The notes beneath the pieces were generated by a model. That model had not been told where the DNA came from, did not search any database, and worked only from the letters and a program-made list of their open reading frames with translations. From assembly GCA_029555025.1 (NCBI GenBank), contig JAKPTZ010000115.1, positions 24,898 through 88,897 of the forward strand: 64,000 nt of DNA, read 5' to 3'. Below are positions 27,986-64,000 of the stretch, one piece after another. Within the stretch, counting starts at the first letter, position 1; every line of letters starts with the position of its first letter. A program made the position numbers and the translations under genes. The stretch is from Deltaproteobacteria bacterium. GTDB taxonomy: Bacteria > Myxococcota_A > UBA9042 > DTJE01.

Positions 27986-27995
27986 GGAAAAAAAG

Positions 27996-29560: not shown

Positions 29561-29638
<78 letters not shown>

Positions 29639-45835: not shown

Positions 45836-48800
45836 TTACTGGCAGGCGGCGACGCCCATTCCGGCGAAGTAGTTGTTGCCGTAGCTGGTCCACTGGAGGG
45901 CCGGGTCGAACACGTCGTTGATGATTGTATCCGGAACGCGCACGGATCTGCACAGGGTGTCGTCAGCCGTCGTAGGCCCAGGCGTTGTTCCCCATTCGGT
46001 TCCAGGGTCGAAGCCGACCTGCCCGAACGAGTCGATGACCTCGCCGTCGCAGCGCAGGACAACCGCGTCGTCCCCGTTGAACTGAAGCACGGTGCCGGCG
46101 ACCTGGTCGCAGTTCGGAAGCGCCGTCGCGTCCAGGCCGCTGTGGCAGACGACCCAGGTGTCCCCGGCCGCAAGTGACGATGCGGTCAGGTTGATCGTGT
46201 ATCCGACCGTTGAAGCCCCGTTCTGGTATCCGGTAATGGTGCAAGAGGTCAGGTCGGTTGCAACGGTGCCGATGTTCAGGATCTCGATGAACTTGTTGCT
46301 GCTGGAACCTTCCCCGTATTCGCTGAAGATCAACTGCGGCGGGGGCGTGCAGATGTCGGTTGTGGCGCATTCGGTTTCGTCGCAGTCGGATATGCCGTCG
46401 AGATCGTTGTCCAGGCCGTCGGAACAGCACGCATCGGTGGCCTTTTCATGTCCGTCCTGGTAACAGGCGTCCGAACATTCGTACGTTCCAAGTCCAAGAT
46501 AGTTGTCGGCCGCGAAGTGAATCCAGCCCGCTGTCGGAATGAAGGCATCGTCGCGCACCCTGTCGCCGACCGAAACATAGCATTCCCGACGCATGGTCGT
46601 GTCAACAGTGGTCTTCCCGGAGTCATCCCAGCCACCGGCGCCGGGATCGGTGCCGATCTGGCCGAATACGTCCATCAGGGAGTTTTCGCACCTAAGGACG
46701 ATCGTGTCGTTGCCGTTGACCGAGAAGAGGCCTGACAGGGCGTCGCAGTATGGCGCCAGCGCAAGGTCGGCGTCGTCGTCGCAAACGACCCATGTGTCGC
46801 GGTCATGCAATATTCCGTCACGCGCGATCGCCATCGCGTAAGCCATTTCCGATGTTCCGTCGGGGTATCCCTCGAGGACGCAATTGTTCAGCATCACGTC
46901 GCGTCCCGACAGGTTGGTGATTTCAATCGCATTGTTGACCCCGGTGCCTTCCACGTATTCGCTGATCACCAGGTTGGGGGCGTCGTTGGCGACAATCATC
47001 CGTCCAGCCTGGTTATCCTGGTCGAAGCCGGTGTCCGAACCGTCAAGGTCGCACAGGGTCCATGAACGGCCGCTGTCGGCGCTGAAACGGATGGCGAAGT
47101 CGTATTCGCCGGCAGTCGTCGGCAGGAAAAGGTTGTAGTAGTAAGTATCGGCGTCCTCGTACGGGGAATTGTTTCCCAGGCCGACGAATGCTGCCGTCCA
47201 GGACCATGTGTCGGGAGAACTGCCCTTCGGGCCATATCCGACTTCGGCCTTGACCGCTGGCGGGTTGTCGTTGCCTGTGGTCACATCCGTCATGCCCGCC
47301 TCGATGATCCAGCCGAAAACCTGGAAATAGGTTCCGGTCTGGGAGATGAACGGCGAGTCGGCCTTCAACTGGCAGAAATCAACCGGTTCCTGGCATACGG
47401 GATCGTCGTCGCAGTCGGAATCGTCGCAGTCGGTTACCCCGTCGTTGTCCTCGTCCGTGCCATCATCACAGTCGGTTTCCTCGGTCGGTTCGATGCAGTA
47501 AGGATCAGTCGCGCAGTCCGGGTCGTTGCAGTCGGTCTGGAGGTCGCCGTCGTTGTCCGCGTGGTCGTCGCATGCGGTTTCGACCCCGGCGGTCACAACG
47601 ATCGAACCGGTGGTCGCCGCCGAGTAGCCGTCGATGGTGCCGGCCGGTTCAAGATCCGCGTAAGTCCACGTGTCGCCGCCGTCGGTGCTGAAACGGAACG
47701 CGTAGTCGAAGGTTCCGACCGGAACGTCGTCGAAGGAAACCCCGTACCTGTCGTCCGAACCGTCAATGTCGTCGAAATAGACCGCGTCGTACCAGGACCA
47801 CAGGATATGTCCGTCGGGGTTGCTGCCGTCAGGGCCCCATCCACCCTGGGCCATCACTCCCAGGCCCTGGCCCGCGACGTTGGTGATGCCCTGCACGAAT
47901 ACCCTGCCGAAAAGTACTTCAGGGATCTCGGCGAAGACCCAGGCGCCGGTGCCGGGCATCATGACGGCCGCGTACCCGATGACCGGCGGCAGGCATTCGA
48001 CCGCCTCGTCGCAGTCGGGATCCATGCAGTCCTTCAGTCCGTCAAGATCGTCGTCATTCAGGTTGTCGCAACAGGTTTCCCTGCCACCCACATGGCATGC
48101 CTGGGCGCAGAGGTTTGAACCAAGATCCAGGAAGGAGTCCCGCGGGAAAGACCACCATTCGAGCCCGGGATCGAACTCGTTCGAAAGGTCGGTGTCCCCG
48201 AAGATTACATCACAATGACGGCGCAGGGTGTGTCCGACGCTGGTGACTTCGCCCGTTCCCCATCCCGAGGCGCCCGGGTTTTCCCCGCGCCGGCCGAACG
48301 AATCCATCAGCTTGTCTTCGCACGTCAGGCTGATTGTGTCGTTGCCGTTGAAATTCAAGAGGGATCTGAATTCGTCACAGTAAGGGGTAAGGTCGGTCGA
48401 GACCCCGGTCTGGCACATCACATAGGACGCCGCATCCTGAAGAACGCCGTCCTCGACATTGAAGATGGTCGATGGGCTGACCGCCCCGTCGGTGTAAATG
48501 GATATCGCGCAGTTCTCAAGGTTGAGGTCACGGCCGCTCAGGTTCAGCAACTCGATCGCCTTGTCGTTCCCCGTGCCGTCAACGTATTCGGTGATGAGCA
48601 CGATCGGATCCGACACGATTTCCAGCTTGCCGGCGTCCGCCACGTCGTATCCGTCGTCGGTTCCGTCAAGATCGCAGTACTTCCAGGAATATCCGCCGTC
48701 GGCCGAGAACCTGAAAGCCATATCGTAATGGCCTTCATCCGCGACCGGCACCACGAATGAATACCGGTAGCTGTCGGCGTCGTCCCTTCCGCTCAGGTTG

Positions 48801-51860: not shown

Positions 51861-53255
51861 ATGATGCGCCCTTATTACAGCATTGCCGCGGTTTTTTTGA
51901 TGTTCCTGGCCGGGGCCGCGCATGCTTCCCAGAATCCGGGGTCCGACAAGTCGGCCAAATCCGGTTCGAGTGAATCCGAATGGGGTCGGCCCTTTGCCGA
52001 ACTCCAGTTTTCCGGGGTCGCCGGCGGCAGCCACGAATCATGGCGAGCCGGTTTTGACTTCGCGCTTTCCGGCGGCAGGGATGGTTTCGAGGTATCCGTA
52101 ATCGCGCCGATACGTTTCGATCCGGACGGCTTTCGGATGCGGGAATGGGATGAGCCGAACGACTTCGGCCGTCTTCTGTCCAGATTCGGCTGGACCGACA
52201 GAACCGGTCAATTCGATGTTTCCATCAAACCAGTCCAGAATTTCAACCTGGGCATGGGTAACCTTGTTTCCATGTTCAACGGAGTCATCGACGGGGATCA
52301 TTTCAGAACCGGAGTCAGCGCCAGACTTCACTGGGATGTTGCTGGCGGAGACCTGTTTCTTGACGGTGTCGCCGGGCCGTCCGTGATCGGCGGTCGGGTC
52401 TATTTCAGGCCGCTGTGGTTCGTCGATCGATCGGGACAGATCGGGCGGCTTGAGATCGGTGCTTCGTTTGCCGGCGATATCAACGCACCTTCAAACCTGG
52501 GAGCGTCCACCCCGGAAAACCCGACGTCATCGGTTCCCGGTCCGAACGGCCTGGTTGCGACCGACCCCTCGCCGTTGACCGCCTGGTCGATCGATGTTTC
52601 CTGGCCGGTTCGGCCGGCGCGGGCCATCCAGATAAAGCCCTGGGCGTCATGGTCAAGGATCGGATGGTCGGATGCATCCCACGTCGGCCTTGAACTCGCG
52701 TTCAACATCAGGTCGAAGGTCGTCCTTACCGTGACAGGCCGGTACGACTTCATGGAATCCGGGTTCGTGACCGGTTATTTCGACAATATCTACATGGCCG
52801 ATCGATACGACTTCAATGCCTTCAGGGACGCGGCGGAAGGTCCGGTGTCCAAGAGGGTAGTCACCGGGACATCACGTCCCGCGAGGCATGGGGGCGCATT
52901 TGGAGTGATGGTCGGCTGGGATCCCTGGCTGACGACGTGGATCGGTGCCGACGTCGATCAGTACGGGGCATTTTCCAGGATTCGCGCGGGCCTGACGGTC
53001 AAGGTGCCGGACAGGCTCCTTCTGACCGGAACCGTCTATGCAAGGGGATTCGGGATTGACGGCCGCCAGCGCCTGGCGGACAGGATCTTCTGTTCCGTGG
53101 CCGCCGACGTCACCGTCTGGAAGTACATCGGTGTGTTCGCCCTCTACTCCCGGGATCTGTTCGTTCCCGACTCCGGTTCCGATCGCTTCAGGTACGTTTC
53201 CGGAAATACCGGCCTGGCCGGAGTACGCTTTTCATTTGGACTGCTGAAGGATTGA
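51861..53255 (+). CDS. Secreted protein, possible outer-membrane beta-barrel
   Basis: Signal peptide MMRPYYSIAAVFLMFLAGAAHA and alternating amphipathic beta-strand-like segments. There is no recognisable catalytic motif. Confidence 0.45.
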   Translation: MMRPYYSIAAVFLMFLAGAAHASQNPGSDKSAKSGSSESEWGRPFAELQFSGVAGGSHESWRAGFDFALSGGRDGFEVSVIAPIRFDPDGFRMREWDEPNDFGRLLSRFGWTDRTGQFDVSIKPVQNFNLGMGNLVSMFNGVIDGDHFRTGVSARLHWDVAGGDLFLDGVAGPSVIGGRVYFRPLWFVDRSGQIGRLEIGASFAGDINAPSNLGASTPENPTSSVPGPNGLVATDPSPLTAWSIDVSWPVRPARAIQIKPWASWSRIGWSDASHVGLELAFNIRSKVVLTVTGRYDFMESGFVTGYFDNIYMADRYDFNAFRDAAEGPVSKRVVTGTSRPARHGGAFGVMVGWDPWLTTWIGADVDQYGAFSRIRAGLTVKVPDRLLLTGTVYARGFGIDGRQRLADRIFCSVAADVTVWKYIGVFALYSRDLFVPDSGSDRFRYVSGNTGLAGVRFSFGLLKD

Positions 53256-54989
53256 CGGCCATTCACCCCCGGCAGGCGCCCATTCCCAGATCTGGCGCCC
53301 GGCAATCTGGCGAACAAGCCGCAGACCGTCGGCGCGCGGCATTTTTCCAAGTTGCATCTCGCGTGGCCCGTAAAGAATCCACCTGATTCCGGCGTTGTTC
53401 AGGAAGCCGGCCGTCCGCGCCTCATCCGGTTCATCGGAATAAAACCAGCGCACAAGGGCGGCCTTTTCCTGATACCGCGTCGAAAGGAACCACTGGCCGA
53501 CAAACACAGGCTTCCCGGCTTTCCACGGAACAATCTGGGCATCGAAAGGGTCGCACAGGACCCCACCGTCCGGAAGCGTTTCAAGTTCCTTCAGGAGTGC
53601 AAGGTGATCCTTTCCGGCCCGCGCCGCCGTCCTTGTCGCCGTCGGGTTGACGTCCAGCACCAGCCCCGCGGCCGAATTCAGCGACGCCAGAACCACGAAG
53701 GCGGCAATGGCGCCGCCCGGCCATGAAGTCCGCCCGCCCGCCGCCTGCCGCCTTTGAACCAGGGCGAACAGTCCGGCAATCTGCAGGATCAGGAATGGAA
53801 CCAGGAACGAAAACTGAAATTTCACCCCGGTCACAAACGGGTTGGCCATCATCGCGAAACCGGTGACGAACCACAGCAGCAGCCATCGCATGACGTGGCG
53901 ATCAATCGTGTTGCGGCGCATCACCAACCCCAGCGGAAGCAGCATCCACGGTCCATAGACTATCGGATAGATTATCGGGGGATAGCCCAGCTTCCACAGA
54001 CCGGTCTGTGCGTTTGACGCCGCGACCACCGGATCCTGCTGGGACCAGGTGATGAAGACGGCCACCAGTGCCGGTCCGGCGAGCGCCGGCAAGTTGATGA
54101 ACAGCGACCTTTTAAGGCTGGTGCCCATCGGCGGAACGACCACCGCGACAGCGACCAGCAAGCCCCAGACGATTGCCGAATATGGGTGTATGAACCACAG
54201 TGCCGCGAACACCATTCCGCGAACCACTCCGGGCAGAAAATCGGCCGGTTTCGAGACGGTGTCCATGCTTCCGACTCGATGATCCCCGGTCTGCGCGCGA
54301 ATCCTGGCAAGCTCGGCCGATCTGTCGGCATTCTTCACCGCGGCCTGTTCAAGCCACCTGATTTCCAAAAGGATCATCAGGGTAATCAGTGTCATCGGGA
54401 TCGCCCAGACAAGGTTGGTCGAAGCCCAGAACACGCTGAAATTCCAGGGGTTGTCAATGAAATTGACCCAGTCCAGCCCGGTCGATGCCATCCTGTCCCG
54501 GAAGAATGGACGGACAAGCCAGTCCAGCCCGCCGGCAAAGAGAACAAATGCGTGGGCCGCGACGGCCTTCCTGCCTTCCTTGAAGACGGCCTGGACAAGT
54601 TTCCACAGCACCAGGCAGAAAGCGGCCAGAACCAGCAGCCGGAGTCCGTGCCATACAACCGGGTCGGGAAGGCCGGTGATGCCCCTGACCGCGCCCGCGA
54701 TAACCAGGCCGACCATCAGGAATCGTCCGTCCTGCCTGGCGGTGGTAAATAAATTTTTTGTCAGCAGCGACCCGTCGCGGGCGGTCTGGGTCGAATACAT
54801 CATATAGGCGAAATGGTCGGTCGGAAGATGCCTGAACCCCAGGAAGGATGAACTTGAATCGTGGGTTCCTGCAAGGGGGGCAGCGCAGATCCAGGCCTGG
54901 GCGATGATGAACGTGGCCGAAAGCGCCAGGGCGATATTACGGTACCGACGGGGAGAGGCCACTGTTACCCCCTGCCTGGTTTGCTGCAT
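53232..54989 (-). CDS. Polytopic inner-membrane protein (about 12 TM, possible GT-C-like glycosyltransferase or DUF membrane protein); start uncertain
   Basis: Many hydrophobic helices across the first 400 aa and a soluble C-terminal domain. The N-terminus overlaps the upstream lipoprotein gene under any ATG start. Confidence 0.5.
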   Translation of the reverse strand: MQQTRQGVTVASPRRYRNIALALSATFIIAQAWICAAPLAGTHDSSSSFLGFRHLPTDHFAYMMYSTQTARDGSLLTKNLFTTARQDGRFLMVGLVIAGAVRGITGLPDPVVWHGLRLLVLAAFCLVLWKLVQAVFKEGRKAVAAHAFVLFAGGLDWLVRPFFRDRMASTGLDWVNFIDNPWNFSVFWASTNLVWAIPMTLITLMILLEIRWLEQAAVKNADRSAELARIRAQTGDHRVGSMDTVSKPADFLPGVVRGMVFAALWFIHPYSAIVWGLLVAVAVVVPPMGTSLKRSLFINLPALAGPALVAVFITWSQQDPVVAASNAQTGLWKLGYPPIIYPIVYGPWMLLPLGLVMRRNTIDRHVMRWLLLWFVTGFAMMANPFVTGVKFQFSFLVPFLILQIAGLFALVQRRQAAGGRTSWPGGAIAAFVVLASLNSAAGLVLDVNPTATRTAARAGKDHLALLKELETLPDGGVLCDPFDAQIVPWKAGKPVFVGQWFLSTRYQEKAALVRWFYSDEPDEARTAGFLNNAGIRWILYGPREMQLGKMPRADGLRLVRQIAGRQIWEWAPAGGEWPSILQQSK

Positions 54990-55875
54990 CGGTGCCGGTC
55001 GGTTCGGTCGAACCGGAATCGAGGCCCGAAAGTATTTCGTCCGCAGCATCCTGGTTGCCAATCTGGTTCAGAAGATCGCTCAGGTCGCGAATCCAGGCCT
55101 GGTGCCTGATCCCCCAGCTTCCGGCCCTCAGGGAATCCGCCGCGGCTTTCGCAATCTCAAGCGCGGAGTCCTCGTCCTCGTCGGCTTCCCAGAGGCCCCT
55201 GGCAAGATAAATCCGGTTCGGCGGATAATCGGGAAACTGCTCGACTGCCTTGCGAAGCATCTCGATTCCCTTTTCGGGATCGCCGATTCCGGCCGGCCAC
55301 GGCGGCGCCTTGATCAGGAGGTAACCCATGGTCCGCAGGGGCCCGCCGCTGTCGAGTTCCGGCGCCTCGCGCACGGCCCTGCCAAGGTGGCGCTGAAGTC
55401 TTCCCAGATACTTCATTGCGGTCAGAATGCTGTCACGAACCGCGATTCCAAGGTTGATCGAGTAGTAATACGATGTCGCAGGGTCGATGGCCAGTCCTGT
55501 TCCCATCGAGTATTCGGCCCACGCGACGCCTTCCCAGGCAAGCGACTTCCTGCGTTCGTCACCGGCTGCCCCCGCCGGGCTGGATTCCGCAAGGAGGCTG
55601 CAAATCCGGGATGCCGTCAGCGCCTCGTGCGCACGGGGCTGCCTTTCGGGCGGCTGCATGTTCCTGACTGCCTGCAGGGCGCAACGCAACTGATCCTGGC
55701 CTGCCGTCAACGGATCCGTCCTGTCACGGGTCAGTGCTTCTTCGTTCCCGGGACAATCGTCCGGAAGATCAAGTTTGAAAAGGTTGCCTTTGTAGGCCGG
55801 GCTGCAGCCGGCGAGGAAAAGAACCGTGACGGAGAAGATGAACAGAACGGCGTGCCTTCCGGGAGCTATTTCCAC
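54937..55875 (-). CDS. Lipoprotein with TPR-like helical repeats
   Basis: Lipobox VLFLAGCSP. The remainder is helical and repeat-like. Confidence 0.5.
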   Translation of the reverse strand: MEIAPGRHAVLFIFSVTVLFLAGCSPAYKGNLFKLDLPDDCPGNEEALTRDRTDPLTAGQDQLRCALQAVRNMQPPERQPRAHEALTASRICSLLAESSPAGAAGDERRKSLAWEGVAWAEYSMGTGLAIDPATSYYYSINLGIAVRDSILTAMKYLGRLQRHLGRAVREAPELDSGGPLRTMGYLLIKAPPWPAGIGDPEKGIEMLRKAVEQFPDYPPNRIYLARGLWEADEDEDSALEIAKAAADSLRAGSWGIRHQAWIRDLSDLLNQIGNQDAADEILSGLDSGSTEPTGTDAANQAGGNSGLSPSVP

Positions 55876-56681
55876 AGTCCTCTCGCCTCGTTAAGGAGAG
55901 CGTTGTCGGCTTTGACGAATCCGGAAATTCCAAACAGCTTGCAGAACTGCTTTCCTTCCTTGTCGTCGCAGAATCTTTCCATGGTCCTGATGAAACCTTC
56001 CCGATCCTTCGCCGTGGTCTTTGCCTTGCTGGCAACCAGAGGCATGATCGGCAGGGCCTTCGATGTGAAGATTACTTCAAGGTCGCGTGCCCAGTCCAGA
56101 GACTTTGACGCGTTGAACTGCTGCTCGGTCACCAGCACGGCGTCAATCTTGCTTCCGGTCAGGTCGCGCAGTGCCTTGATCGAGCCGCGCGCCTTTTCCG
56201 CGACGAACGAGGAAAGCGGGTATTTCCCGGCCAGAACGACCTTCTCGACGAACGCGGGCTCGGCCAGCGGCGTGCCGCTGATCTTTTTTCCCTTCAGTTC
56301 GTCCATCGTCTTGAACGTGCCCTTGCGGACAAGGACGCGGAATGTTTCCGTCGTCTTGCCGTCCATCTTCGGCTGGACGACCGGCTCGAGGCCTTCCGGG
56401 TTCTGAAGCAGGAATCCAAGCGAGACGATGGCGTAGTCGGGCTTTGCGGCCATCAGGGCGCCACACTTCGTCATGTCCGAAGTGAACTCGGAAGTGAACG
56501 AGCCGGAATCCCAGCCCGACATCTTCTCCATCACGCGCAGCATCTGGTCGGTGGCCGGTTTGGCGTCGGCCTCGCGGACGCTGCCGCCGGGATAGCAAAG
56601 GACAAGTGTCTTTCCGGCTGCCGGGACACAAGCCGCGACCGCAATCAACGCAACAATGGATGCCGTGAAAAACCTGTTCAT
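55866..56681 (-). CDS. Periplasmic solute-binding-like protein (signal peptide, PBP-like fold suspected)
   Basis: Signal peptide MNRFFTASIVALIAVAACVPAAG. Its start overlaps the MMPL stop (ATGA). Confidence 0.5.
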   Translation of the reverse strand: MNRFFTASIVALIAVAACVPAAGKTLVLCYPGGSVREADAKPATDQMLRVMEKMSGWDSGSFTSEFTSDMTKCGALMAAKPDYAIVSLGFLLQNPEGLEPVVQPKMDGKTTETFRVLVRKGTFKTMDELKGKKISGTPLAEPAFVEKVVLAGKYPLSSFVAEKARGSIKALRDLTGSKIDAVLVTEQQFNASKSLDWARDLEVIFTSKALPIMPLVASKAKTTAKDREGFIRTMERFCDDKEGKQFCKLFGISGFVKADNALLNEARGLWK

Positions 56682-59437
56682 TTCTTTCTCCTGTCGGTCA
56701 GTTGTGCCATCAGCGGCGCAAGCAGAAGCGCGCACGCAAGGCAGCATGCAAGGCCGATCGTAACACCCAGGCCAAGCGTCGAGATGCCCCTGTATTCGGC
56801 AAGCGAAAGGGCACCGATACCGGCTATCGTGGTCAACGCAGCCACAAGTATAGGAATTCCCGCGACGCGGATGATCTGCCAGGGTCCGTACTGGCGCATT
56901 TCATCGAACCGGTGGGCGAACCAGATGCCGTAATCCAGCGCCAGCGCCATCAGCAGCGGCAGGGCGATGATATTCGCGTAGTTGTACATGTAGCCATGAG
57001 TCTTGTTCAGGATTGCCAGGATTCCCAGCATGATTCCCTCGCCAATCAGAAGCGGAAGAGAGGCGACGAGGAAGACCGGGATGCTGCGCAGAACCAGCAT
57101 CAGGAATGCCATCGCAACAATAATCGCCAGGGCCGTGCCGCTGAAGAAGCTTGAACGCGCAAGCTCCGCCTGGACGTTGTGCGTGGTCGGGAAACCGGTC
57201 GCCGCCGGGTTGATTTCGTAGATGTCCTTCATCAGGCGCTGAAGGAACGAAATGTTATAGACGGAATCGGCCGGATAGACGTAGGTGGCGATACTTCCGT
57301 CATTTCCGAAGAACCTTGAACGAAGGTTGTCGGGAAGATCAGTCGGTTCCAGAACCTTGGCGTCCTTCCACTTCGCCAGTTCCCGAAGCATGTATCTGGC
57401 GTCCCCGACGATCGCGGTCAGGAAAGCCTGGTTAGCCGTCCCCGCCTTCTCCGGATCTGCCTGGAGCCTTTCGATGATCCTGGCAAGGCGATCCCGGACG
57501 CCGTCGATGGCCCCGACCAGATCGGCATGTCCGGCGCTGGAGGCTGATTCCTGGTAATCGTCAATCATGTCCATAACCTTTTCAAGGATTGCCGCAATCC
57601 GCAGCGGCGCGCCGTTTTCCGGCAGCACGAAGTTCTTTTCGTCCATGATGTATCTGGCCACGTCCGATTCCGACAGGATTCGGCCGACCTTGCGGGCGGG
57701 TTCCACCCTTTCTGCCGCATCGGACGGGAAGAACTGCATCGGGCTCTGCACCTTGGCAACGGTGTTCAGCTTCTGGGCCTTATCGCCGATCTCGCGAGCT
57801 TCCTCCTGGGTCTTCGCCACAAGGATGACGACTTCCGACTGGTAATCGCTTTCCTTGACCATCCGTTTGGAATAGATCGCGGTTTCCGAATCCGCTGGCA
57901 GCATGTTAAGGACGTCGTAATCAAACGGCAGGTTGATGCCCTTGTAGGCACCGACTGCGGCGAGAATGACGGCCACCGTGACGATTGCCGCCGCGATCGG
58001 CTTCGGGATTTTCTTTCCCGGGTCGTCCTTTCCTTCCATGCCGGTGTCCTGTCCGAGTGCCTCGGCAGGCCTCGGCTTCAGCAGCGCGAACAGCGCTGGA
58101 AGCAGGGTGAACGTCGAAATCTGGACGGTTGCCACGCCGCACAGGGCAACGATTCCCAGTTCTGAAAATCCGGTGAATTCAACGGTTCCAAGTGCCCCGA
58201 ACACCATCATCGAAGCAAGTCCGGAAGTCACGACCGGTCGGGCCGAAGCCCCGGTTCCGACGCGGATGGCGTCCATCAGCGGCAGTCCGCGCTTCATCTC
58301 CTCGATGATCCGCGATGAGATGAAAACCCCGTAGTCAACGCCAAGCCCGAACAGCACCGCCGTGAAGGCGGTGGTAACCATGTTCATGTGGCCGACGGTG
58401 AAGTACATCATCGAGAAGGCCCAGACCGACCCGAAGCCCATGGCGCCGAATACGACCAGTCCGCGGCGGAACGAACGCATGACGAAAGTGATGATCAGAA
58501 GGATCAATATGCCTGCGCCGGCGATTGTCCAGGTGACGCCCTTCTGGATGTAGCTGAATTCCTCGTAGATTGTGGCAGGCATTCCGGCAAGGCCCGTCGT
58601 CGGAACCGCGCGTCCGGCCGCCTTCCATTCCGCCTTCAGCGCGTCGTTGGTTGATCTTACGTTCTCATAGAAAGGCTTGATTGCGGTGAATTCCTCGGAG
58701 CCGATGGCCTTTCGTACGAACACGAAAAGCATCGAACCGTCGTGGGAATCGTAGAAGCCGTTGCCGGTGACCATCTTGCGTGCTTCCGGCTGATCGGCCA
58801 GCATCTTTTCCCACGCGATCCTGGTCGCCTTGCTGTCCGGTTCAAGCCAGCGCAGCCATTCGTCCAGGAAGAACTGCATGCCGTTCAGTGAAGCTCTGGC
58901 CGAATCCATGTCGATTTCGCCCATCGGGATGGCCGGGGGCTCCTCGAAATAGCGGTTGGCCGCGTCAAGCGCCTCGTCCAGGCTTGACGGCATCTTTCCA
59001 TCCATCGACAGGAGTCCGTCCATGAATGTCGCAGCCTTGTCGAACTGCTCGTGGGGAAGGATGGTGTATGCATGGGAAACGAAAAAGTTCAGGTCAAGAC
59101 GGCTGTCGGCGGCGGACACCTCGGGAAGCTCTTCAAGTCGGGACGCCAGTTCCGCGGCGTACTTCTCCAGTTCCGGCCGTTCGATGCCTTCGATTGCGAT
59201 TATCAGGTCCGAGGCGGCGCCGAAGTTTTCCATGTAGTGTTCGAAACGTTCAACTTCCGGGCTGGTTCTGTCCAGCAGCGCCGTGCGTGATGTAAGGAAA
59301 GGCATCTGGCTCAGCAGATAGAGGGACAGCGCGCACAGGGCCAGGCCTATACCCACAAATACAAGTGGACGTCTCGAGGAGGCCGCGGCAATCGTCTGGA
59401 AAAAATGCTCGAATCGCTTTTCGAAATTCTTCAACAT
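56678..59437 (-). CDS. MMPL/RND-superfamily transporter (HpnN-like, 12 TM with two periplasmic loops)
   Basis: Two 6-TM bundles of SSD type, each preceded by a large periplasmic domain. This is the typical MMPL architecture. Confidence 0.8.
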   Translation of the reverse strand: MLKNFEKRFEHFFQTIAAASSRRPLVFVGIGLALCALSLYLLSQMPFLTSRTALLDRTSPEVERFEHYMENFGAASDLIIAIEGIERPELEKYAAELASRLEELPEVSAADSRLDLNFFVSHAYTILPHEQFDKAATFMDGLLSMDGKMPSSLDEALDAANRYFEEPPAIPMGEIDMDSARASLNGMQFFLDEWLRWLEPDSKATRIAWEKMLADQPEARKMVTGNGFYDSHDGSMLFVFVRKAIGSEEFTAIKPFYENVRSTNDALKAEWKAAGRAVPTTGLAGMPATIYEEFSYIQKGVTWTIAGAGILILLIITFVMRSFRRGLVVFGAMGFGSVWAFSMMYFTVGHMNMVTTAFTAVLFGLGVDYGVFISSRIIEEMKRGLPLMDAIRVGTGASARPVVTSGLASMMVFGALGTVEFTGFSELGIVALCGVATVQISTFTLLPALFALLKPRPAEALGQDTGMEGKDDPGKKIPKPIAAAIVTVAVILAAVGAYKGINLPFDYDVLNMLPADSETAIYSKRMVKESDYQSEVVILVAKTQEEAREIGDKAQKLNTVAKVQSPMQFFPSDAAERVEPARKVGRILSESDVARYIMDEKNFVLPENGAPLRIAAILEKVMDMIDDYQESASSAGHADLVGAIDGVRDRLARIIERLQADPEKAGTANQAFLTAIVGDARYMLRELAKWKDAKVLEPTDLPDNLRSRFFGNDGSIATYVYPADSVYNISFLQRLMKDIYEINPAATGFPTTHNVQAELARSSFFSGTALAIIVAMAFLMLVLRSIPVFLVASLPLLIGEGIMLGILAILNKTHGYMYNYANIIALPLLMALALDYGIWFAHRFDEMRQYGPWQIIRVAGIPILVAALTTIAGIGALSLAEYRGISTLGLGVTIGLACCLACALLLAPLMAQLTDRRKK

Positions 59438-59686
59438 GTTAAGACCTGGGCGAGTTAATAATTTCAAATGGTTGTGCGACCTGCCGTGTTCATTGAACCG
59501 ATCCGGCAGGTCGGAATTCGGTGCAGATTGTCACCGTTCTGGCGGTCGAAAGTCAAGGAAGGCACCCCCAGTCCGGTCAGCGCCATCAAAGGCCATATCG
59601 ACCCTGACCATGTTAGTCCCCGAAATCACTTGTTGACTGGCGTCGGCATGCAAAATACCCTCTTCCGGGTCTTTGTCCTGGAGCAG

Positions 59687-61492
59687 ATGATGCGACATCA
59701 CCCCCTTCCAACGCTTCTGATTCCCCTGATGATGATGGCCGCCTGCGGTTCCGCCGGTTCAAGCCCGGATCTGGCCGGGGATGTCCCCGACGTGGGCGTG
59801 CCCGATTCGATCCAGGGAGACTTGATGCCGGACGATCCCGGCGGGCCGGACGTTCCGGTCGTTTCCGACGCATCCGATGCCGTCGAGCCGGTCGATTCAC
59901 TTGACGCGGTCGATGCCGCCGATTCGGTCGGGGATGAGGGCGCTCCGTTCGACTTCAGGGTTCGGTGGAATGCGCCGGCCGGTCCGTGGCCGGTCTGCGA
60001 CGAGGTGGCTGGAACATCGAAGACGCTGGCCGCCAAGGCCGCCTATTACGACTGGATCGGGCCGAAGCTGCACCAGGAACCGAAGTCCGGATCGCACGAA
60101 GACACCGCAAGGATGTACAACGTGGATTGTGACGGCCCGGTACCGGTGGAAATCGTGCCGGACGACCAGTTGCCGAACTGCGTTCTTCGCAGCAGCGAGA
60201 ACAACGGGCTGTGGACGTCGATGTACGTTGCGTCCCAGTGCTTCAGGTACGGCGCGACCGGGGATGCGGAAGCACTTGCAAATGCGCTGCGCACCCTGAA
60301 GGGCACGTACGAGTTGATGCAGATCACCGGGCGTCCCGGTCTTTACGCCCGCGAGGCTTCGGATCCCGGGATCGCCCCAATCCAGACTTGTCCCGAAGAC
60401 CCGATGGAGTACCGACCGCCCGAGGAAGGCACCAGGAAGGGCAATTACTGGGTGAAGGTCGATACCGACGGGTGCATGCTGGATTACCACTCGGACTCGG
60501 CGGAATGGGTGAAGCACCCGGATGTCTGCACGGACGTCAAATATGCCGGGCGCTGCTGGAAGCGCAACGTGTCCAAGGATGAATACAGCGGCCATGCATA
60601 CGCGGCCGGCGTGTGCGCCAAGGTTGTCGATGATCCCGCCGTTCGCGGGCTGGCGACCGAAATCCTTTCGAAGATTGCGCATCATCTTAAGGACAATGCC
60701 TACTGGCTGACAGATTACGACGGTCTCGAGACCAGGTACGGTTCGATCCATGCCATGTCCCTTGACCACATCCCGGGTTTCAACGCGAAGCTGGCGCTTG
60801 TCTGGGTCAAGTCGGCCGCGATGGCATCAGGCGAGCAGGAACTGATTGACGAATACTATAAGTGCCTTCTCCAGTCCGACGGCGAACTGCGGTGTATCGA
60901 AAGGGAGACCGAATTCCCGGTCGATTACACCACCTTCCTGGACGAACTCGGGTTGAAGATTGGTTGCCAGACCAACTTCGACAACGTCAGCATGATGATG
61001 CTTGCGTACCTGAACGAGATCTGGTTCGAGCCGTCGAAGGCGGAGCGTGCGCGTTTCCGTGCCCTGTTCGAACAGGCCAGTCGAGGCCCGGATACCGATG
61101 ACAGGGACATCTGGTCGATGAAGGTGCCCTTTTACAATTTCATGATCGCCGCGGCCGAAGGCGATGAAGCGATGACCGCGGAACGAAGGAACCTTATCGA
61201 GTCCATGGTCAACGATGGAATCTGCGTCCTCAAGAATTTCCAGGAAACCCAGATCGAGCGAGATGAAGACACCACCGTGCTTGAATCGGTGTGCGAGTCC
61301 GACCGCCACGGTTCGTTGATTGACGGCATAGTTCCAATCGAGGATCGCTGTCCGGCGACGTTTGAATGGTGGGGCGACCCTTCATCGGTTGAAAAGTGCA
61401 GCTTCAACCCGAACGTCGCCGACAACCCGGCCGGCTTCCTTGCCCCTTACTGGATGGGGCGATACTTCGGGTTCATTTCGGAAGACATGTGA
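59687..61492 (+). CDS. Lipoprotein, paralog A of an unknown-function family (C-terminus ...PYWMGRYFGFI)
   Basis: Lipobox LMMMAACGSAG after the start at MMRHHPLP, and a D/P/V-rich linker. The core is homologous to the next gene. Confidence 0.6.
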   Translation: MMRHHPLPTLLIPLMMMAACGSAGSSPDLAGDVPDVGVPDSIQGDLMPDDPGGPDVPVVSDASDAVEPVDSLDAVDAADSVGDEGAPFDFRVRWNAPAGPWPVCDEVAGTSKTLAAKAAYYDWIGPKLHQEPKSGSHEDTARMYNVDCDGPVPVEIVPDDQLPNCVLRSSENNGLWTSMYVASQCFRYGATGDAEALANALRTLKGTYELMQITGRPGLYAREASDPGIAPIQTCPEDPMEYRPPEEGTRKGNYWVKVDTDGCMLDYHSDSAEWVKHPDVCTDVKYAGRCWKRNVSKDEYSGHAYAAGVCAKVVDDPAVRGLATEILSKIAHHLKDNAYWLTDYDGLETRYGSIHAMSLDHIPGFNAKLALVWVKSAAMASGEQELIDEYYKCLLQSDGELRCIERETEFPVDYTTFLDELGLKIGCQTNFDNVSMMMLAYLNEIWFEPSKAERARFRALFEQASRGPDTDDRDIWSMKVPFYNFMIAAAEGDEAMTAERRNLIESMVNDGICVLKNFQETQIERDEDTTVLESVCESDRHGSLIDGIVPIEDRCPATFEWWGDPSSVEKCSFNPNVADNPAGFLAPYWMGRYFGFISEDM

Positions 61493-61549
61493 CGCCGGCC
61501 TTTTTCCGGCGCGTGTCCGTCCTGGCATTCAATGACGCTGGAGGTACCA

Positions 61550-63391
61550 ATGTTCAGGTTTGGCCCGTCGGTTGCCGCGATTGTAGCTACCCTTGTCCTT
61601 GGCTGTTCCGGCGGGCCTGGAAACCCGGATGCGGTTGAACCGGACGATGTCCCGGGCGACATTTCCGGCGATGACGTTCCTTCGGTTCCCGACACCGGTA
61701 ATCCAGCGGATGCGTTCGATGCCGGTTCGGATTCGGAGCCGGGCGATCTTCCGCGAAATGACGGCCAGGAAGTCGCCATCCCTGATGATGGCTCATCTGA
61801 AGATGTCCCGGTTCTGCCCGAGCTGGTTCTTACAAGGACAGTCGTGCCCGTCGTGGATGCCGGCTTGTCATTGAACCATGCCCTCGAAGCGACGGGTGGC
61901 CAGCCGCCTTATTCAGACTGGACCATAGTGAAGGGGAGCCTGCCTGCCGGCGTCGAACTGGATGCCGAAACGGGGATCATTTCAGGGGTGCCTTCGGAAA
62001 GGGGGTTTTCCTGGTTTGTCGTCGAGGTTGGTGACTCGGCCGGCAACCGCGCCTCCGAGCTCTTCGGCATCCGGGTCGGGGATCCCGTTTCGACAGGCCC
62101 GCTGCGCGAAAGGGCGGACGCATACCAGGCCGTCTATGAAGCCAGGCACGACTGGGGCGGCTTCAGCTACAACTGCAACACGCCCGACGATCCGGACGGC
62201 AACCTGCGCCTGACTACCCTTGGCGACGCGACTTTCCAGTCTGGTCAGTGCACGATGGCGATGGCTTACAGGGACGCGGTCGAACGTACCCAGCAGACTT
62301 CGGCTTACCTGAAGAAGCAGGTTGACGGCTGGCGGTTTTTCCAGAACCTGACGGGTGTTCCGGGGCTTATCGGAAGAAGCTGGGGCAAGGTCGATTATCC
62401 GTGGGAAGACAACCACCACCGTGACGGATTCTGGCCGGACAACCCGGATTCGCACAGTTACCGCGCCGAAGGCGATTACGAAGGGTACATATGGGTTGGC
62501 GATGTCAGTCGGGATCAGGCAAGCGGCGCCGTGCTCGGTGTCGCGGCCGCGTACGACCTGGCCGACGACCCGGAGACGAAGGCGACCGCGGCCGCCTTTC
62601 TTACCGATCTGGTCGATCATGTCTGGGAAAACAATCTCGATTTCAAGGACAGGAACGACAAGCCGCCAAGGTACGGGAACATCGACGGCGACAACTTCGA
62701 AGGCTGGCCGTATCCAAACGGCCTGAACGCGGCGTGCTCGCTTGCATGGTTCAGGATCGCGGCACACGTGGCCGAGGCTGAAGGGCTCGACGATGCGGGC
62801 CGGTTCCGCGAAAGGTACCAGGAACTGGTGTCTCGCGGGTATATCGGATACATGCGCGACTACATGTGGGTTTATGACGGATACAACACGAAGCACTACA
62901 ACACTTACATGGCGTATGAAAATCTTTTCCATCTGGCACGTCTTGAAGACGACCCCGTTCTTGGCCCCCAGATCGACGACATCTTCCGGGACACGCTGTG
63001 GCTGAACCTGGACGACAACACGCCGAACCGCAAGGGCGTGAAGGAAGGAAATCCGGTCAAGACCACATGGTACCTGTATTCGACCGGGGATCGGGATCCG
63101 GTTGCCCTCTGGGATGCGCTCTGGCAGGTAGTCGTCTTCCCGGACGCGCCGCTTCGCGACCGTTACGTGAAAAACAGCGACGACCCTGAAATCGTGGTCA
63201 ACCCGGATGAGCCGACGGAATCCCTTTACCCGCTTCCTTCAAACCGGCTTCAGCCCGACATGGTCATCTGGCACCGCAGCACGTTCCTTCTGGACGGCGG
63301 AGTCGATTCGGGCGAGGAAAGAACCGGTTGCGATTACCTTCTGCCTTACTGGATGGGGCGTTACTACGGCTGGATCGATGCGGCCTGGTGA
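61550..63391 (+). CDS. Lipoprotein, paralog B with a putative Ig (He_PIG-like) domain; C-terminus ...PYWMGRYYGWI
   Basis: Lipobox LVLGCSGG and a motif LPAGVELDAETGIISGVPSERG. The C-terminal 400 aa align with paralog A. Confidence 0.6.
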   Translation: MFRFGPSVAAIVATLVLGCSGGPGNPDAVEPDDVPGDISGDDVPSVPDTGNPADAFDAGSDSEPGDLPRNDGQEVAIPDDGSSEDVPVLPELVLTRTVVPVVDAGLSLNHALEATGGQPPYSDWTIVKGSLPAGVELDAETGIISGVPSERGFSWFVVEVGDSAGNRASELFGIRVGDPVSTGPLRERADAYQAVYEARHDWGGFSYNCNTPDDPDGNLRLTTLGDATFQSGQCTMAMAYRDAVERTQQTSAYLKKQVDGWRFFQNLTGVPGLIGRSWGKVDYPWEDNHHRDGFWPDNPDSHSYRAEGDYEGYIWVGDVSRDQASGAVLGVAAAYDLADDPETKATAAAFLTDLVDHVWENNLDFKDRNDKPPRYGNIDGDNFEGWPYPNGLNAACSLAWFRIAAHVAEAEGLDDAGRFRERYQELVSRGYIGYMRDYMWVYDGYNTKHYNTYMAYENLFHLARLEDDPVLGPQIDDIFRDTLWLNLDDNTPNRKGVKEGNPVKTTWYLYSTGDRDPVALWDALWQVVVFPDAPLRDRYVKNSDDPEIVVNPDEPTESLYPLPSNRLQPDMVIWHRSTFLLDGGVDSGEERTGCDYLLPYWMGRYYGWIDAAW

Positions 63392-63467
63392 TGGCACGCC
63401 CCAGCATGGATCCCGCTTCAACGCACATGTATAATGAACCGATTCTTTACAATACAAGGGGTCGCCC

Positions 63468-64000
63468 ATGGACAGAGTCCTGCCTTTCGAAGTGTCTCCG
63501 GCTTCCGCCCGTGTCGCGCTGACTTCACGTCATCGGCCACGCAACTGCGTCTGGGAACTGACCCTTGACTGCAACCTGAACTGCGTTCATTGCGGTTCGT
63601 CGGCCGGCAGGGCACGCCACGCCGAGCTTTCGACCGAAGAGGCCCTCGACGTGGTTCGGCAGCTTCGGGATCTGGGCTGCGAACTGGTGACGCTTTCCGG
63701 CGGCGAGCCGCTTCTGCGGCCTGACTGGTTTGAAATCGCCCGCGCGATTGCCGATTCCGGAATGTACGTCAACATGGTCACCAACGGCCTGCTGGTTGAC
63801 GACGAGGTCGCCGCGAAGATATCGCGTTCCGGGATGTGCAACGTTGGCGTAAGCATCGACGGGCCGCGTGACGTGCACGACAGGATCCGCGCCCCCGGAT
63901 CGTTCGACAAGTCGATGGCCGGCATCCGGACGCTGGTGAAAAACGGCGTCAGCGTCGGCGTGATGACCACAATCAACCGCTGGAACATGGCCAGGCTCGA
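63468..64000 (+). CDS. Radical SAM enzyme (CxxxCxxC; SPASM/PqqE-like family suspected), 3' end beyond window
   Basis: The translation from ATG 63468 reads MDRVLPFEV...WELTLDCNLNCVHCGSS...TLSGGEPLL...MVTNGLL. It is open to the window end. It is absent from the ORF track only because no stop lies within the window. Confidence 0.7.
   Translation, partial: MDRVLPFEVSPASARVALTSRHRPRNCVWELTLDCNLNCVHCGSSAGRARHAELSTEEALDVVRQLRDLGCELVTLSGGEPLLRPDWFEIARAIADSGMYVNMVTNGLLVDDEVAAKISRSGMCNVGVSIDGPRDVHDRIRAPGSFDKSMAGIRTLVKNGVSVGVMTTINRWNMARL

What the first reader, a model, noticed from the sequence alone, without database searches (positions are those of the whole stretch)
59687..64000. Tandem paralogous lipoproteins with a conserved C-terminal PYWMGRY(F/Y)G(F/W)I motif, immediately followed by a radical SAM gene
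The two lipoproteins (602 and 614 aa) share a core of about 400 aa and an almost identical C-terminal decapeptide. They differ in their N-terminal linkers, and B has a putative Ig-like LPAGVELDAETGIISGVP domain. Both carry a WY/GDVSRD-type signature of acidic and aromatic residues that could be an (alpha/alpha)6-type glycosidase-like fold.

A radical SAM (CNLNCVHC) gene starts 76 bp downstream, behind its own TATAAT box, and runs off the window. Radical SAM maturases often modify co-encoded proteins, so a maturase-substrate relationship is possible but speculative.
Basis: partly seen in the sequence, partly recalled or inferred. Interest (0 to 1): 0.5.

Follow-up and report, generated by a model that had tools for sequence, protein, structure and literature searches.

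The report
Barrel lipoprotein pair beside self-substrate radical SAM
The two lipoproteins are old paralogues of an undescribed sugar-enzyme-like barrel family and are probably not what the neighbouring radical SAM enzyme modifies. That enzyme carries its own likely substrate, a lipoprotein-like tail of repeated Asp/Glu-Tyr-Gly motifs, fused to its C-terminus just beyond the window.

Summary
There are two tandem lipoprotein genes (601 and 613 aa) with a shared C-terminal PYWMGRYxGxI motif. A radical SAM gene starts 76 nt downstream, behind a conserved -10-like box.

The maturase-substrate idea is not supported. The trio is syntenic only in four close lineages. Four more distant lipoprotein loci lack the rSAM, and 79 of 80 rSAM-family loci lack the lipoproteins.

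The full rSAM (600 aa, recovered from identical metagenome contigs) is an rSAM/SPASM domain followed by a hydrophobic segment with a lipobox-like Cys and then Cys-rich repeats. Across 93 family tails, 82% of Tyr precede Gly, giving the consensus [DE]YG[VI]xP. In four genomes the same kind of tail is a separate neighbouring gene.

The nearest curated families are TIGR04103 and TIGR03913, both below cut-off. Spliceases excise tyramine at XYG motifs, so I propose a fused, self-contained splicease-like lipoprotein system. This chemistry is inferred, not shown.

The parts
59687..61492 (+). lipoA: a 601-aa lipoprotein. It has a signal peptide with lipobox Cys20, an acidic disordered linker of about 65 aa, and an (alpha/alpha)6-barrel core (aa ~95-601).
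61445..61477 (+). lipoA C-terminal motif PYWMGRYFGFI (aa 587-597), the last helix of the barrel.
   Evidence: It lies in helix 582-594 at pLDDT ~95. Y588, W589, R592 and G595 are invariant. The motif is found at the C-terminus of 86 of the 148 superfamily representatives examined.
61550..63391 (+). lipoB: a 613-aa lipoprotein (619 aa if started at 61532). It has lipobox Cys19, an acidic linker, a He_PIG Ig-like domain and a paralogous (alpha/alpha)6-type core.
   Evidence: ORF. Alignment A3. hhalign against the lipoA family gives probability 100%, E 3.4e-49.
61895..62077 (+). He_PIG (putative Ig) domain of lipoB, aa 116-176.
   Evidence: Pfam PF05345, E 3.1e-8, 34.4 bits against a cut-off of 24.
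63344..63376 (+). lipoB C-terminal motif PYWMGRYYGWI (aa 599-609).
63430..63435 (+). -10-like TATAAT, 32 nt upstream of the rSAM start codon.
   Evidence: Sequence. TAnnAT is kept at the same position in L001, L006, L009 and L013. No -35 partner was found by the consensus scan.
63468..64000 (+). First 177 aa of a 600-aa radical SAM/SPASM protein, with CNLNCVHC at 63570-63593. The rest lies beyond the window and is read from L001:11937-13739. It comprises the SPASM Cys cluster (to ~aa 362), a basic and Ala-rich hydrophobic segment ending in the lipobox-like GSAAC (Cys397), an acidic linker, and four CCxC(D/E)YG repeats running to the C-terminus.

Best explanation
The region holds two unrelated things that sit side by side in one lineage of uncultured Myxococcota.

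**1. The lipoproteins.** lipoA and lipoB are an anciently duplicated pair of cell-envelope lipoproteins. Each is tethered to the membrane by a lipidated Cys and a long acidic disordered linker; B adds an Ig-like He_PIG domain. Each ends in an (alpha/alpha)6 barrel from a large, uncurated superfamily. The shared PYWMGRYxGxI decapeptide is the last helix of that barrel. By fold, and because a distant relative is fused to a Melibiase domain, they most likely bind or cleave a glycan or similar polymer outside the cytoplasm. That function is inferred.

**2. The radical SAM gene.** It encodes a self-contained enzyme-plus-substrate protein. An N-terminal cytoplasmic rSAM/SPASM domain is most similar to the TIGR04103 and TIGR03913 peptide maturases. 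It is followed in the same polypeptide by a basic stretch, an Ala-rich hydrophobic segment ending in a lipobox-like Cys, an acidic linker, and four repeats of CCxC(D/E)YGIIP.

Proposed mechanism (inferred):
- The rSAM domain acts in cis, before export, on the [DE]YG motifs of its own tail.
- The tail is then threaded across the membrane by the hydrophobic segment.
- It may be lipidated, and cut off, at the lipobox Cys. The result would be a disulfide-rich, envelope-anchored product carrying several ketoamides, possibly a protease inhibitor.

The rSAM does not mature the lipoproteins.
For: **Lipoproteins**
- Paralogy over 358 profile columns.
- The superfamily has 2061 clusters at E<1e-3. Many distant members match only the C-terminal ~300 aa, always reaching their own C-terminus.
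- One distant member carries a Melibiase domain.
- The C-terminal motif is family-wide.

**No link between the rSAM and the lipoproteins**
- The lipoA-lipoB-rSAM order occurs only in L001/L002, L006-8, L009 and L013, where the rSAM is at least 67% identical.
- Lipoprotein homologues at about 50% identity stand in unrelated contexts.
- The rSAM genes 8 kb downstream in L003 do not belong to this family.
- None of the other 79 rSAM-family loci holds a lipoA or lipoB homologue within 10 kb.
- No neighbouring gene family is conserved across 28 tail-bearing loci.

**The tail as cognate partner of the rSAM**
- The fusion is conserved in three species at 70% identity.
- Nearly all of the 120 best family clusters are full-length fusions, out of at least 600 at E<1e-30.
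- In 93 tails, 449 of 546 Tyr are followed by Gly, against 7.7% expected. Position -1 is always D or E, +2 is V or I, and +4 is P in 91%.
- Cys-free variants keep the xYG[VIM]xP repeats.
- In L046, L037, L054 and L083, a tail-less rSAM of the same clade sits beside a separate gene. That gene encodes a leader, a hydrophobic segment, a lipobox Cys and YG repeats.
- CxxxCxxC starts at residue 35, which leaves no room for an N-terminal recognition (RRE) domain.

**Chemistry**
- The top curated hits are TIGR04103 (288 bits) and TIGR03913 (267), against 172 for AhbD.
- A cyanobacterial near-member of TIGR04103 (721.6 bits against a cut-off of 725) is 38% identical to this rSAM.
- PlpX-type spliceases are rSAM/SPASM enzymes that excise tyramine at XYG motifs, including DYG, LYG and MYG. 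Their splice tags read ..PLYGLPI and ..GYGVVFP (PMC11414181, PMC10533398, PMC11626197, PMC11002830).
- RiPP precursors that use the lipoprotein pathway are documented (PMC13056109).
- The model's nearest solved folds are the peptide maturases SkfB, PqqE, SuiB, anSME and ChlB.
Against: - No chemistry was tested.
- The enzyme is below the curated cut-off of every NCBIfam model and is equidistant from TIGR04103 and TIGR03913. That TIGR04103 equals the PlpX family (IPR026482) rests on my memory, not on a tool result.
- X is Asp or Glu here, whereas most characterised sites have Met or Leu; DYG is reported only as a motif in RcsA.
- An internal lipobox 370 residues into a protein is not a classical signal peptide. 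Export, lipidation and cleavage are all conjecture.
- The Cys-rich repeats could instead be thioether or metal sites.
- The tail region of the AF2 model is low confidence (pLDDT 35-80), and I could not inspect coordinates to see whether a YG site docks in the active site.
- No terminator was detected between lipoB and the rSAM, so co-transcription in this lineage is not excluded.
- lipoB's C-terminal motif does contain Y-Y-G.
- No catalytic residues could be assigned for the lipoproteins. Similarity to glycosidases is at fold level only (5-12% identity).
Confidence: 0.6

Rival explanations
1. One reading: the rSAM is a maturase that modifies lipoA and/or lipoB, for example at the conserved C-terminal PYWMGRYxGxI peptide, before their export.
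For: The three genes are adjacent, on the same strand, with short gaps and no detected terminator. The order is kept in four related lineages. lipoB's motif contains Y-Y-G, formally an XYG site. Both families keep a conserved R/x-Y-G in the D-x-D-G...T-R-Y-G segment.
Against: Synteny disappears at about 50% identity and is absent from 79 of 80 rSAM-family loci. The lipoprotein superfamily has more than 2000 clusters and many domain contexts. The residue before Gly in the C-terminal motif is H (28), Y (22), F (10) or L (5) across the superfamily, so no Tyr is conserved there. The motif is a confident barrel helix, not a flexible peptide. The rSAM has its own conserved -10-like box and its own repeat tail.
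Confidence: 0.05
2. The fused tail is the rSAM's substrate, but the chemistry is not tyramine splicing. It could be a Tyr-centred C-C, C-O or cyclophane crosslink within Y-G-(V/I), or Cys-to-Asp/Glu thioethers in the CCxC(D/E)YG repeats, as in other SPASM maturases.
For: The enzyme is below the cut-offs of TIGR04103 and TIGR03913 and equally far from both. Its nearest solved folds, SkfB, PqqE and SuiB, make thioether or C-C crosslinks. The local subtype is very Cys-rich and has an acidic residue at position -1.
Against: Cys-free tails keep the YG[VIM]xP repeats with the same enzyme layout, so Cys is dispensable for the partnership. In the split precursors the residue at -1 varies (A, E, P, D, L), so an Asp/Glu acceptor is not conserved. 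The invariant pair is Tyr-Gly, exactly the splicease site (PMC11414181, PMC10533398).
Confidence: 0.2
3. The tail is not a substrate. It is an exported, membrane-anchoring or metal/disulfide-rich domain that positions the rSAM at the membrane, and the enzyme acts on an unidentified small molecule or protein.
For: The hydrophobic helix 363-396 and the preceding basic residues fit an N-in/C-out anchor. The tails are acidic and low-complexity and vary in length. No transporter or protease is conserved nearby.
Against: A short motif repeated up to 12 times, with 82% of all Tyr in a YG context, is typical of multi-core RiPP substrates. The same tail occurs as a separate gene next to tail-less enzymes in four genomes, where it cannot anchor the enzyme. 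The enzyme clade consists of peptide maturases.
Confidence: 0.12
4. In this lineage only, the lipoproteins and the rSAM-tail product cooperate outside the cell. For example, the modified lipoprotein tail might regulate or protect the (alpha/alpha)6 enzymes, without any enzyme-substrate relation.
For: The block MMPL / Phosphonate-bd / lipoA / lipoB / rSAM / Cys-rich giant protein is conserved in four lineages. All products are predicted to be in the envelope.
Against: Conservation is restricted to close relatives, which is what simple inheritance of gene order would give. There is no independent evidence of interaction.
Confidence: 0.05

Closest known systems
Spliceases (PlpX/PcpX/RhaX/RcsX rSAM-SPASM enzymes) and spliceotide RiPPs
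   Same: The enzyme is an rSAM plus SPASM domain whose best curated matches are TIGR04103 and TIGR03913. The cognate peptide carries X-Tyr-Gly sites followed by a hydrophobic residue and Pro, as in the PlpA tags PLYGLPI and GYGVVFP. Sites are multiple and often Cys-flanked (PMC10533398, PMC11626197).
   Different: Enzyme and substrate form one polypeptide. There is no PlpY or RRE partner and no conserved neighbour. The leader is replaced by the enzyme plus a hydrophobic lipobox segment. X is Asp or Glu. The score is far below the equivalog cut-off. The hosts are uncultured Myxococcota. The chemistry is untested.
DAG-RiPPs (lipoprotein-pathway RiPPs made by MNIO enzymes; PMC13056109)
   Same: The substrate carries a hydrophobic segment and a lipobox Cys, so a cytoplasmically modified peptide would be handed to the lipoprotein pathway. 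The split precursors in L046, L054, L083 and L037 look like long-leader lipoprotein precursors.
   Different: The modifying enzyme is radical SAM, not MNIO. In the fused form the lipobox is internal, about 395 residues from the N-terminus. Lipidation is not shown.
Borosins (OphMA-type N-methyltransferase fused to its own core peptide); comparison from my own knowledge, not checked with a tool
   Same: The architecture is enzyme followed by its own C-terminal substrate, acting in cis.
   Different: The enzyme class and chemistry are different, borosins are fungal or cytoplasmic, and there is no membrane or lipobox element.
GH76 alpha-1,6-mannanases and other (alpha/alpha)6-barrel glycoside hydrolases and epimerases
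   Different: Identity is 5-12%, with no Pfam or PDB sequence match. There are beta-hairpin inserts and about ten conserved Cys. The signature motifs differ (S-K/R-D-E/Q, DxDG..T.YG, C-terminal PYWMGRYxGxI). The catalytic residues are unassigned.
TIGR04133 'rSAM_w_lipo' radical SAM/SPASM family
   Same: It is an rSAM/SPASM enzyme whose curated name links it to a lipoprotein. It is a constant third-rank hit (164 bits; 151-163 bits).
   Different: The score is far below the cut-off of 425, and it is a different clade. I did not examine the partner lipoprotein of that family.

Membership tests
Radical SAM / SPASM peptide-maturase superfamily | CxxxCxxC cluster motif in a partial TIM barrel, plus a C-terminal SPASM Cys cluster for auxiliary Fe-S clusters | tested here: met
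   CNLNCVHC lies at aa 35-42 and Pfam Radical_SAM gives E 2e-30. Cys 261/265/283/332/335/341/347/362 are conserved. NCBIfam alignments run through the SPASM region. PF13186 is precomputed on many homologues. The nearest folds are SkfB, PqqE, SuiB and anSME.
Splicease, TIGR04103 equivalog (nif11-class maturase 3; PlpX type) | Whole-protein score at or above the curated cut-off (725 bits) | tested here: not met
   288.5 bits. It is the best hit but far below cut-off. TIGR03913 follows at 267 bits against a cut-off of 592.
Splicease / spliceotide system | Cognate precursor with X-Tyr-Gly splice sites encoded with the enzyme | tested here: met
   There are four (D/E)YG sites in the fused tail. Family-wide, 82% of tail Tyr are in a YG context, with consensus [DE]YG[VI]xP. 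Separate YG-repeat genes sit next to tail-less enzymes.
Splicease / spliceotide system | [quoted passage not shown] | not testable with these tools
   This needs mass spectrometry of the expressed protein.
Splicease / spliceotide system | Activating helix from a Y protein or from the precursor leader | tested here: inconclusive
   No Y-like gene is conserved nearby. A long helix (aa 363-396) follows the SPASM domain, and the split precursors have a helical-looking N-terminal leader of 35-45 aa. No docking could be examined.
DAG-RiPP / bacterial lipoprotein pathway (tail of the rSAM) | N-terminal signal peptide ending in a lipobox [LVI][ASTVI][GAS]C | tested here: inconclusive
   A basic stretch, an Ala-rich hydrophobic segment and a Cys are found in 93 of 115 family members, with endings such as AAGC, VSGC, LAAC and VTGC. 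In the fused proteins the element is internal, not N-terminal. In the split precursors it follows a leader of 35-45 aa.
Bacterial lipoproteins (lipoA, lipoB) | N-terminal signal peptide with a lipobox Cys | tested here: met
   A has MMRHHPLPTLLIPLMMMAAC and B has MFRFGPSVAAIVATLVLGC. The Cys is invariant in 28 and 42 homologues. Lipidation itself was not tested.
GH76 / (alpha/alpha)6 glycoside hydrolases (lipoA, lipoB core) | (alpha/alpha)6 barrel fold | tested here: met
GH76 / (alpha/alpha)6 glycoside hydrolases (lipoA, lipoB core) | Sequence membership (Pfam or CAZy family model) and the catalytic acid pair | tested here: not met
   No Pfam or NCBIfam family matches at E<=1. There is no PDB sequence hit for the core. 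Invariant D298/E299 in A corresponds to D322/Q323 in B, so a shared acid pair is not evident.
   Co-occurrence is seen only in four close lineages. It is absent at four distant lipoprotein loci and at 79 of 80 rSAM-family loci.
Heme/cofactor housekeeping rSAM (AhbD, NirJ, PqqE, MftC, MoaA) | Score at or above the curated cut-off of the equivalog | tested here: not met
   AhbD 172 against 500, NirJ 143 against 515, MftC 143 against 265, PqqE 114 against 381, MoaA 89 against 325.

The most novel reading that the evidence does not exclude
The rSAM is a single-polypeptide, self-processing RiPP factory. A splicease domain converts up to 4-12 [DE]YG sites in its own C-terminal extension into alpha-keto-beta-amino acids. 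The extension is then exported through its internal signal-like segment, diacylglyceryl-modified and cleaved at the internal lipobox. This would release an envelope-anchored, disulfide-rich, multi-warhead ketoamide lipoprotein, probably a protease inhibitor, in Myxococcota. It would be the first radical-SAM member of the lipoprotein-pathway RiPPs and, as far as the literature I could search shows, the first natural enzyme-substrate fusion among spliceases.
Probability: 0.3. Interest if true: 0.8.

Novelty: new variant of a known kind. Interest (0 to 1): 0.55.

Why it matters
**If the splicease reading is right**
- Hundreds of uncultured Myxococcota would encode beta-amino-acid (ketoamide) lipoproteins made by an enzyme fused to its own substrate.
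- That would extend spliceotides from small secreted peptides to membrane-anchored proteins.
- It would add a radical-SAM branch to the recently described lipoprotein-pathway RiPPs.
- It would offer a naturally leader-independent, single-gene splicing system of the kind that has been engineered artificially (PMC11414181).

**Lipoproteins**
- They define a large (alpha/alpha)6-barrel domain family (more than 2000 clusters at 50% identity) with a hallmark C-terminal helix and no Pfam model. This family is worth curating as a candidate new glycan-active family.

**For the scan itself**
- Adjacency to a radical SAM gene is weak evidence of a maturase-substrate pair. Reading past the window edge changed the interpretation.

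Tried and rejected
- **Housekeeping rSAM (AhbD/NirJ/PqqE/MftC/MoaA).** All are far below their cut-offs.
- **TIGR04133 'rSAM with lipoprotein'.** 164 bits against a cut-off of 425.
- **Tat signal in the tail.** The RRF in L001 and L006 looked like a twin-arginine motif, but it is HKF in L009 and absent in most relatives.
- **Internal translation start at Met369, making a separate lipoprotein.** The Met is invariant only in the three closest species and is not conserved family-wide.
- **Known family for the tail.** There is no NCBIfam hit, and Pfam gives only a chance DUSP match at E 0.0086.
- **lipoB's YYG, or the conserved RYG, as splice sites.** The position before Gly in the C-terminal motif is mostly His, Phe or Leu elsewhere in the superfamily.
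- **The 535-aa ORF after the lipoB homologue in L003 as a third paralogue.** It is not detected by either profile.
- **The two rSAM genes 8 kb downstream in L003.** They are not members of this family.
- **A conserved partner gene (protease, transporter, RRE) around tail-bearing rSAMs.** None was found in 28 loci.
- **Sigma-70 promoter and intrinsic terminator scans between the three genes.** Nothing above shuffled background.
- **Exact-sequence lookup of the 601-aa lipoA.** It failed because the public gene call uses the upstream ATG and gives 674 aa.
- **Foldseek against AFDB50.** The library was not available.
- **Model coordinates.** They are not exposed, so I could not measure whether a YG site docks near the Fe-S cluster.
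- **Scott et al. 2022 (Chem), which catalogues 939 predicted splicease systems.** The paper is not held, so I could not check whether fused forms are already listed.
- **Literature searches for TIGR04103 or TIGR03913, or for rSAM + SPASM + Myxococcota + lipoprotein.** They found nothing.

Full report
**What is at the coordinates**

Two same-strand ORFs fill 59687-61492 and 61550-63391. Both begin with a lipoprotein-type signal peptide: LMMMAAC in A and LVLGC in B. The Cys is invariant in 28 and 42 homologues respectively.

Both proteins end in PYWMGRY(F/Y)G(F/W)I. After the lipoB stop codon there are 76 nt containing TATAAT (63430-63435). An ORF then starts at 63468 with CNLNCVHC and runs off the window. 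Pfam calls it Radical_SAM (E 2.8e-30) and calls aa 116-176 of lipoB a He_PIG Ig-like domain (E 3.1e-8). The description in the finding is therefore accurate. The lengths are 601 and 613 aa.

**The lipoproteins**

Pairwise BLASTP joins the two proteins only over 143 aa (28% identity, E 3e-12) plus the C-terminal motif. Each has its own family of homologues, named only 'hypothetical' or 'Ig domain-containing protein' in Myxococcota and Bradymonadia MAGs. The two family profiles align over 358 columns with probability 100% and E 3.4e-49.

- Neither core matches any Pfam, NCBIfam or PDB sequence.
- An AlphaFold2 model of lipoA built on 28 sequences is confident (mean pLDDT 83.8, pTM 0.83). Residues 1-84 are disordered, matching the Asp/Pro/Val-rich tether. 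The core is made of helical hairpins with a few beta inserts.
I could not assign catalytic residues. The invariant S-K-D298-E299 of A corresponds to S-R-D322-Q323 in B.

An exhaustive profile search finds 2061 clusters (50% identity) at E<1e-3 and 179 at E<1e-30. Many are 450-800 aa proteins that match only the C-terminal ~300 positions, always up to their own C-terminus. In nine of these, Pfam sees only the N-terminal partner domains: Melibiase, Reg_prop propeller, TIG, and a ceramidase N-terminal fragment.

The decapeptide is the hallmark of the whole superfamily: LLPYWMGRYxG(F/L/V)I lies within 12 residues of the C-terminus in 86 of the 148 representatives examined. The residue before Gly is H (28), Y (22), F (10) or L (5). 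In the model it forms helix 582-594 at pLDDT ~95. It is thus a structural element of the barrel, not a free peptide.

**The radical SAM gene beyond the window**

An exact-sequence lookup of lipoB returned two JGI metagenome contigs identical to the window that extend past its end (L001, L002). The rSAM there is 600 aa (L001:11937-13739).

- Residues ~20-365 are an rSAM plus SPASM-type domain, with Cys at 261/265/283/332/335/341/347/362.
- The best curated matches are TIGR04103 (nif11-class peptide maturase 3, 288 bits, cut-off 725) and TIGR03913 (GDL-motif peptide maturase, 267 bits, cut-off 592).
- AhbD reaches 172 bits and TIGR04133 164. Every cofactor enzyme is far below its cut-off. It is not a housekeeping enzyme, and it is not a member of any curated equivalog.
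- After the SPASM domain come NRRFRD, an Ala-rich hydrophobic stretch ending in LIMGSAAC, an acidic linker, and four repeats: C(E/A)xVCCxC(D/E)YGIIPxEV(W/Y)xECC. The last copy is CCECDYGTPPPPQCC at the extreme C-terminus.
- Neither Pfam nor NCBIfam knows this tail.
- The fusion is conserved at about 70% identity in two other species.
- A database search gives at least 600 relatives at E<1e-30. Nearly all of the best 120 clusters are 480-700 aa proteins with the same layout.

**Test of the maturase-substrate idea**

The block lipoA-lipoB-rSAM is kept in L001/L002, L006-L008, L009 and L013. It is flanked upstream by a divergent MMPL / Phosphonate-bd operon and downstream by a convergent Cys-rich protein of about 1200 aa. 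In these four lineages the rSAM is at least 67% identical.

- Lipoprotein homologues at about 50% identity, in genomes of 2.7-6 Mb, stand in unrelated contexts. The two rSAM genes 8 kb from one of them do not belong to this family.
- Conversely, I scanned one genome per species with the rSAM family profile and kept 80 loci with 10-kb flanks. Only L013, the closest relative, contains lipoA or lipoB homologues.
- Among 28 tail-bearing loci, no neighbouring gene family is shared beyond the four close relatives, apart from the Cys-rich giant protein in one more locus.
- A TAnnAT element about 32 nt upstream of the rSAM start is kept in all four lineages. The simple scans found neither a two-hexamer promoter nor a terminator.

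**What the rSAM's partner is**

I extracted 93 family tails (16,057 residues).

- 449 of 546 Tyr (82%) are followed by Gly, against 7.7% expected.
- The residue before Tyr is always Asp (54%) or Glu (46%). Position +2 is Val or Ile, and +4 is Pro in 91%.
- There are 1-12 copies per protein. The consensus is [DE]YG[VI]xP.
- More distant relatives keep the same layout (SPASM, basic stretch, hydrophobic segment, Cys, acidic linker) and keep xYG(V/I/M)xP(D/E) repeats without any Cys. The invariant feature is therefore Tyr-Gly.

In four genomes the tail is a separate gene next to a tail-less enzyme of the same clade:

- L046: a 163-aa ORF ends 11 nt upstream of the rSAM.
- L037: an ORF lies just downstream of the rSAM.
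- L054 and L083: divergent ORFs of 294 and 255 aa.

Each of these ORFs has a leader of 35-45 aa, a hydrophobic segment ending in a lipobox-like Cys, and YG(I/V/A)P repeats. This fusion-versus-split pattern argues that the tail is the enzyme's cognate partner. The enzyme has no room for an N-terminal recognition domain, because CxxxCxxC begins at residue 35.

**Likely mechanism**

- Natural sites include MYG, LYG and DYG. Splice tags read ...PLYGLPI and ...GYGVVFP.
- The products inhibit proteases, and their cores can be disulfide-bridged.
- 27 systems have been validated and 939 predicted.
- These points come from PMC11414181, PMC10533398, PMC11626197, PMC10849128 and PMC11002830.

PlpX is assigned to IPR026482 (PMC11002830). 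From memory, that entry is the InterPro counterpart of TIGR04103; I could not verify this with a tool. A Lyngbya enzyme scoring 721.6 bits on TIGR04103 is 38% identical to the rSAM here.

RiPP precursors that carry a lipoprotein signal peptide, and that are lipidated after cytoplasmic modification, were recently demonstrated for MNIO enzymes (PMC13056109).

Putting these together, I propose the following. The rSAM domain modifies the [DE]YG sites of its own tail in cis in the cytoplasm, most likely by tyramine splicing. The tail is then exported via the hydrophobic segment and perhaps lipidated and cleaved at the lipobox Cys.

- Shown: the architecture, the motif statistics, the split and fused gene pairs, and the nearest curated enzyme families (TIGR04103/TIGR03913, below cut-off). 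That these place it among spliceases rests on the unverified TIGR04103-PlpX link.
- Inferred: the chemistry, the order of events, export, lipidation and function.

The AF2 model of the full protein has a confident rSAM domain, a long helix at 363-396 and low-confidence repeats. Its nearest solved folds are the peptide maturases SkfB, PqqE, SuiB, anSME and ChlB.

**Rivals**

- The tail could be a substrate for different chemistry, such as Tyr crosslinks or Cys thioethers.
- The tail could be a mere exported anchor.
- The lipoproteins could still be modified. I rate that last reading at about 5%.

**Novelty and limits**

The lipoproteins are members of an uncurated but large (alpha/alpha)6 family, which is ordinary in kind. 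The rSAM looks like a new architectural variant of a known kind: splicease-like, fused to a lipobox-bearing substrate.

I could not read Scott et al. 2022, so fused forms may already be listed there. Nothing in the searchable literature mentions them. Most of the interesting part lies just outside the 64-kb window; only the first 177 residues of the enzyme are inside it.

Noticed in passing
L001:13789-17565 (-), just beyond the window end; also L006, L009, L013, L016: A lipoprotein-like protein of about 1200-1260 aa lies convergent to the rSAM gene. It is made almost entirely of Cys-rich DGNPCTxDxC repeats (15 stretches match Pfam Dicty_CTDC, E 1e-68). It is the only neighbour also found next to a more distant (45% identical) tail-bearing rSAM, in L016. 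I did not test whether it relates to the Cys-rich tail.
   Followed up: partly
window 45836-51199 (-): A 1787-aa ORF has four Lamin Tail Domain stretches (E 2e-39) and Dicty_CTDC Cys-rich repeats. It is a second giant Cys-rich repeat protein in the same window.
   Followed up: no
window 53232-59467 (-) and 51861-53255 (+): A gene block divergent from lipoA is conserved with the lipoprotein pair in the four close lineages. It comprises an MMPL-family transporter (929 aa), a Phosphonate-bd-type periplasmic binding protein (293 aa), a TPR-like 312-aa protein, a 609-aa polytopic membrane protein with no Pfam hit, and a 464-aa protein with no Pfam hit.
   Followed up: partly
window 59468-59686 (+): Public gene calls start lipoA at the upstream ATG (674 aa), which adds 73 residues before the lipoprotein signal peptide. 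The family alignment supports the start at 59687, since homologues begin at the signal peptide.
   Followed up: yes
L054:8917-9801 (-) and L083:9021-9788 (-): The split precursors in Polyangiaceae MAGs carry a different Cys/Asp-rich repeat, CxxxxDDDxDGxTDCxDxDCxxAPxC, before each xYG(I/V)P site. It resembles calcium-binding or thrombospondin-type-3-like repeats. The repeat scaffold around the YG site therefore varies between lineages.
   Followed up: partly
L020:203-1996 (+), L022, L023, L028, L031, L032, L039: Some family tails mix Cys-rich CCxCDYG repeats with many Cys-free PDYGVEP/PEYGVEP copies, up to 11-12 YG sites per protein. Others have very long Asp/Thr or Pro-rich linkers.
   Followed up: partly
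window 27910-28068 (-) and 29571-29645 (-): There are three tRNA genes (Glu-TTC, Lys-TTT, Gly-GCC). No other Rfam family reached its gathering score in the window.
   Followed up: no
L009:11836-11935 (approx.): The public record GCA_964522105.1 has a run of N between lipoB and the rSAM, so the intergenic length in that lineage is unreliable.
   Followed up: no
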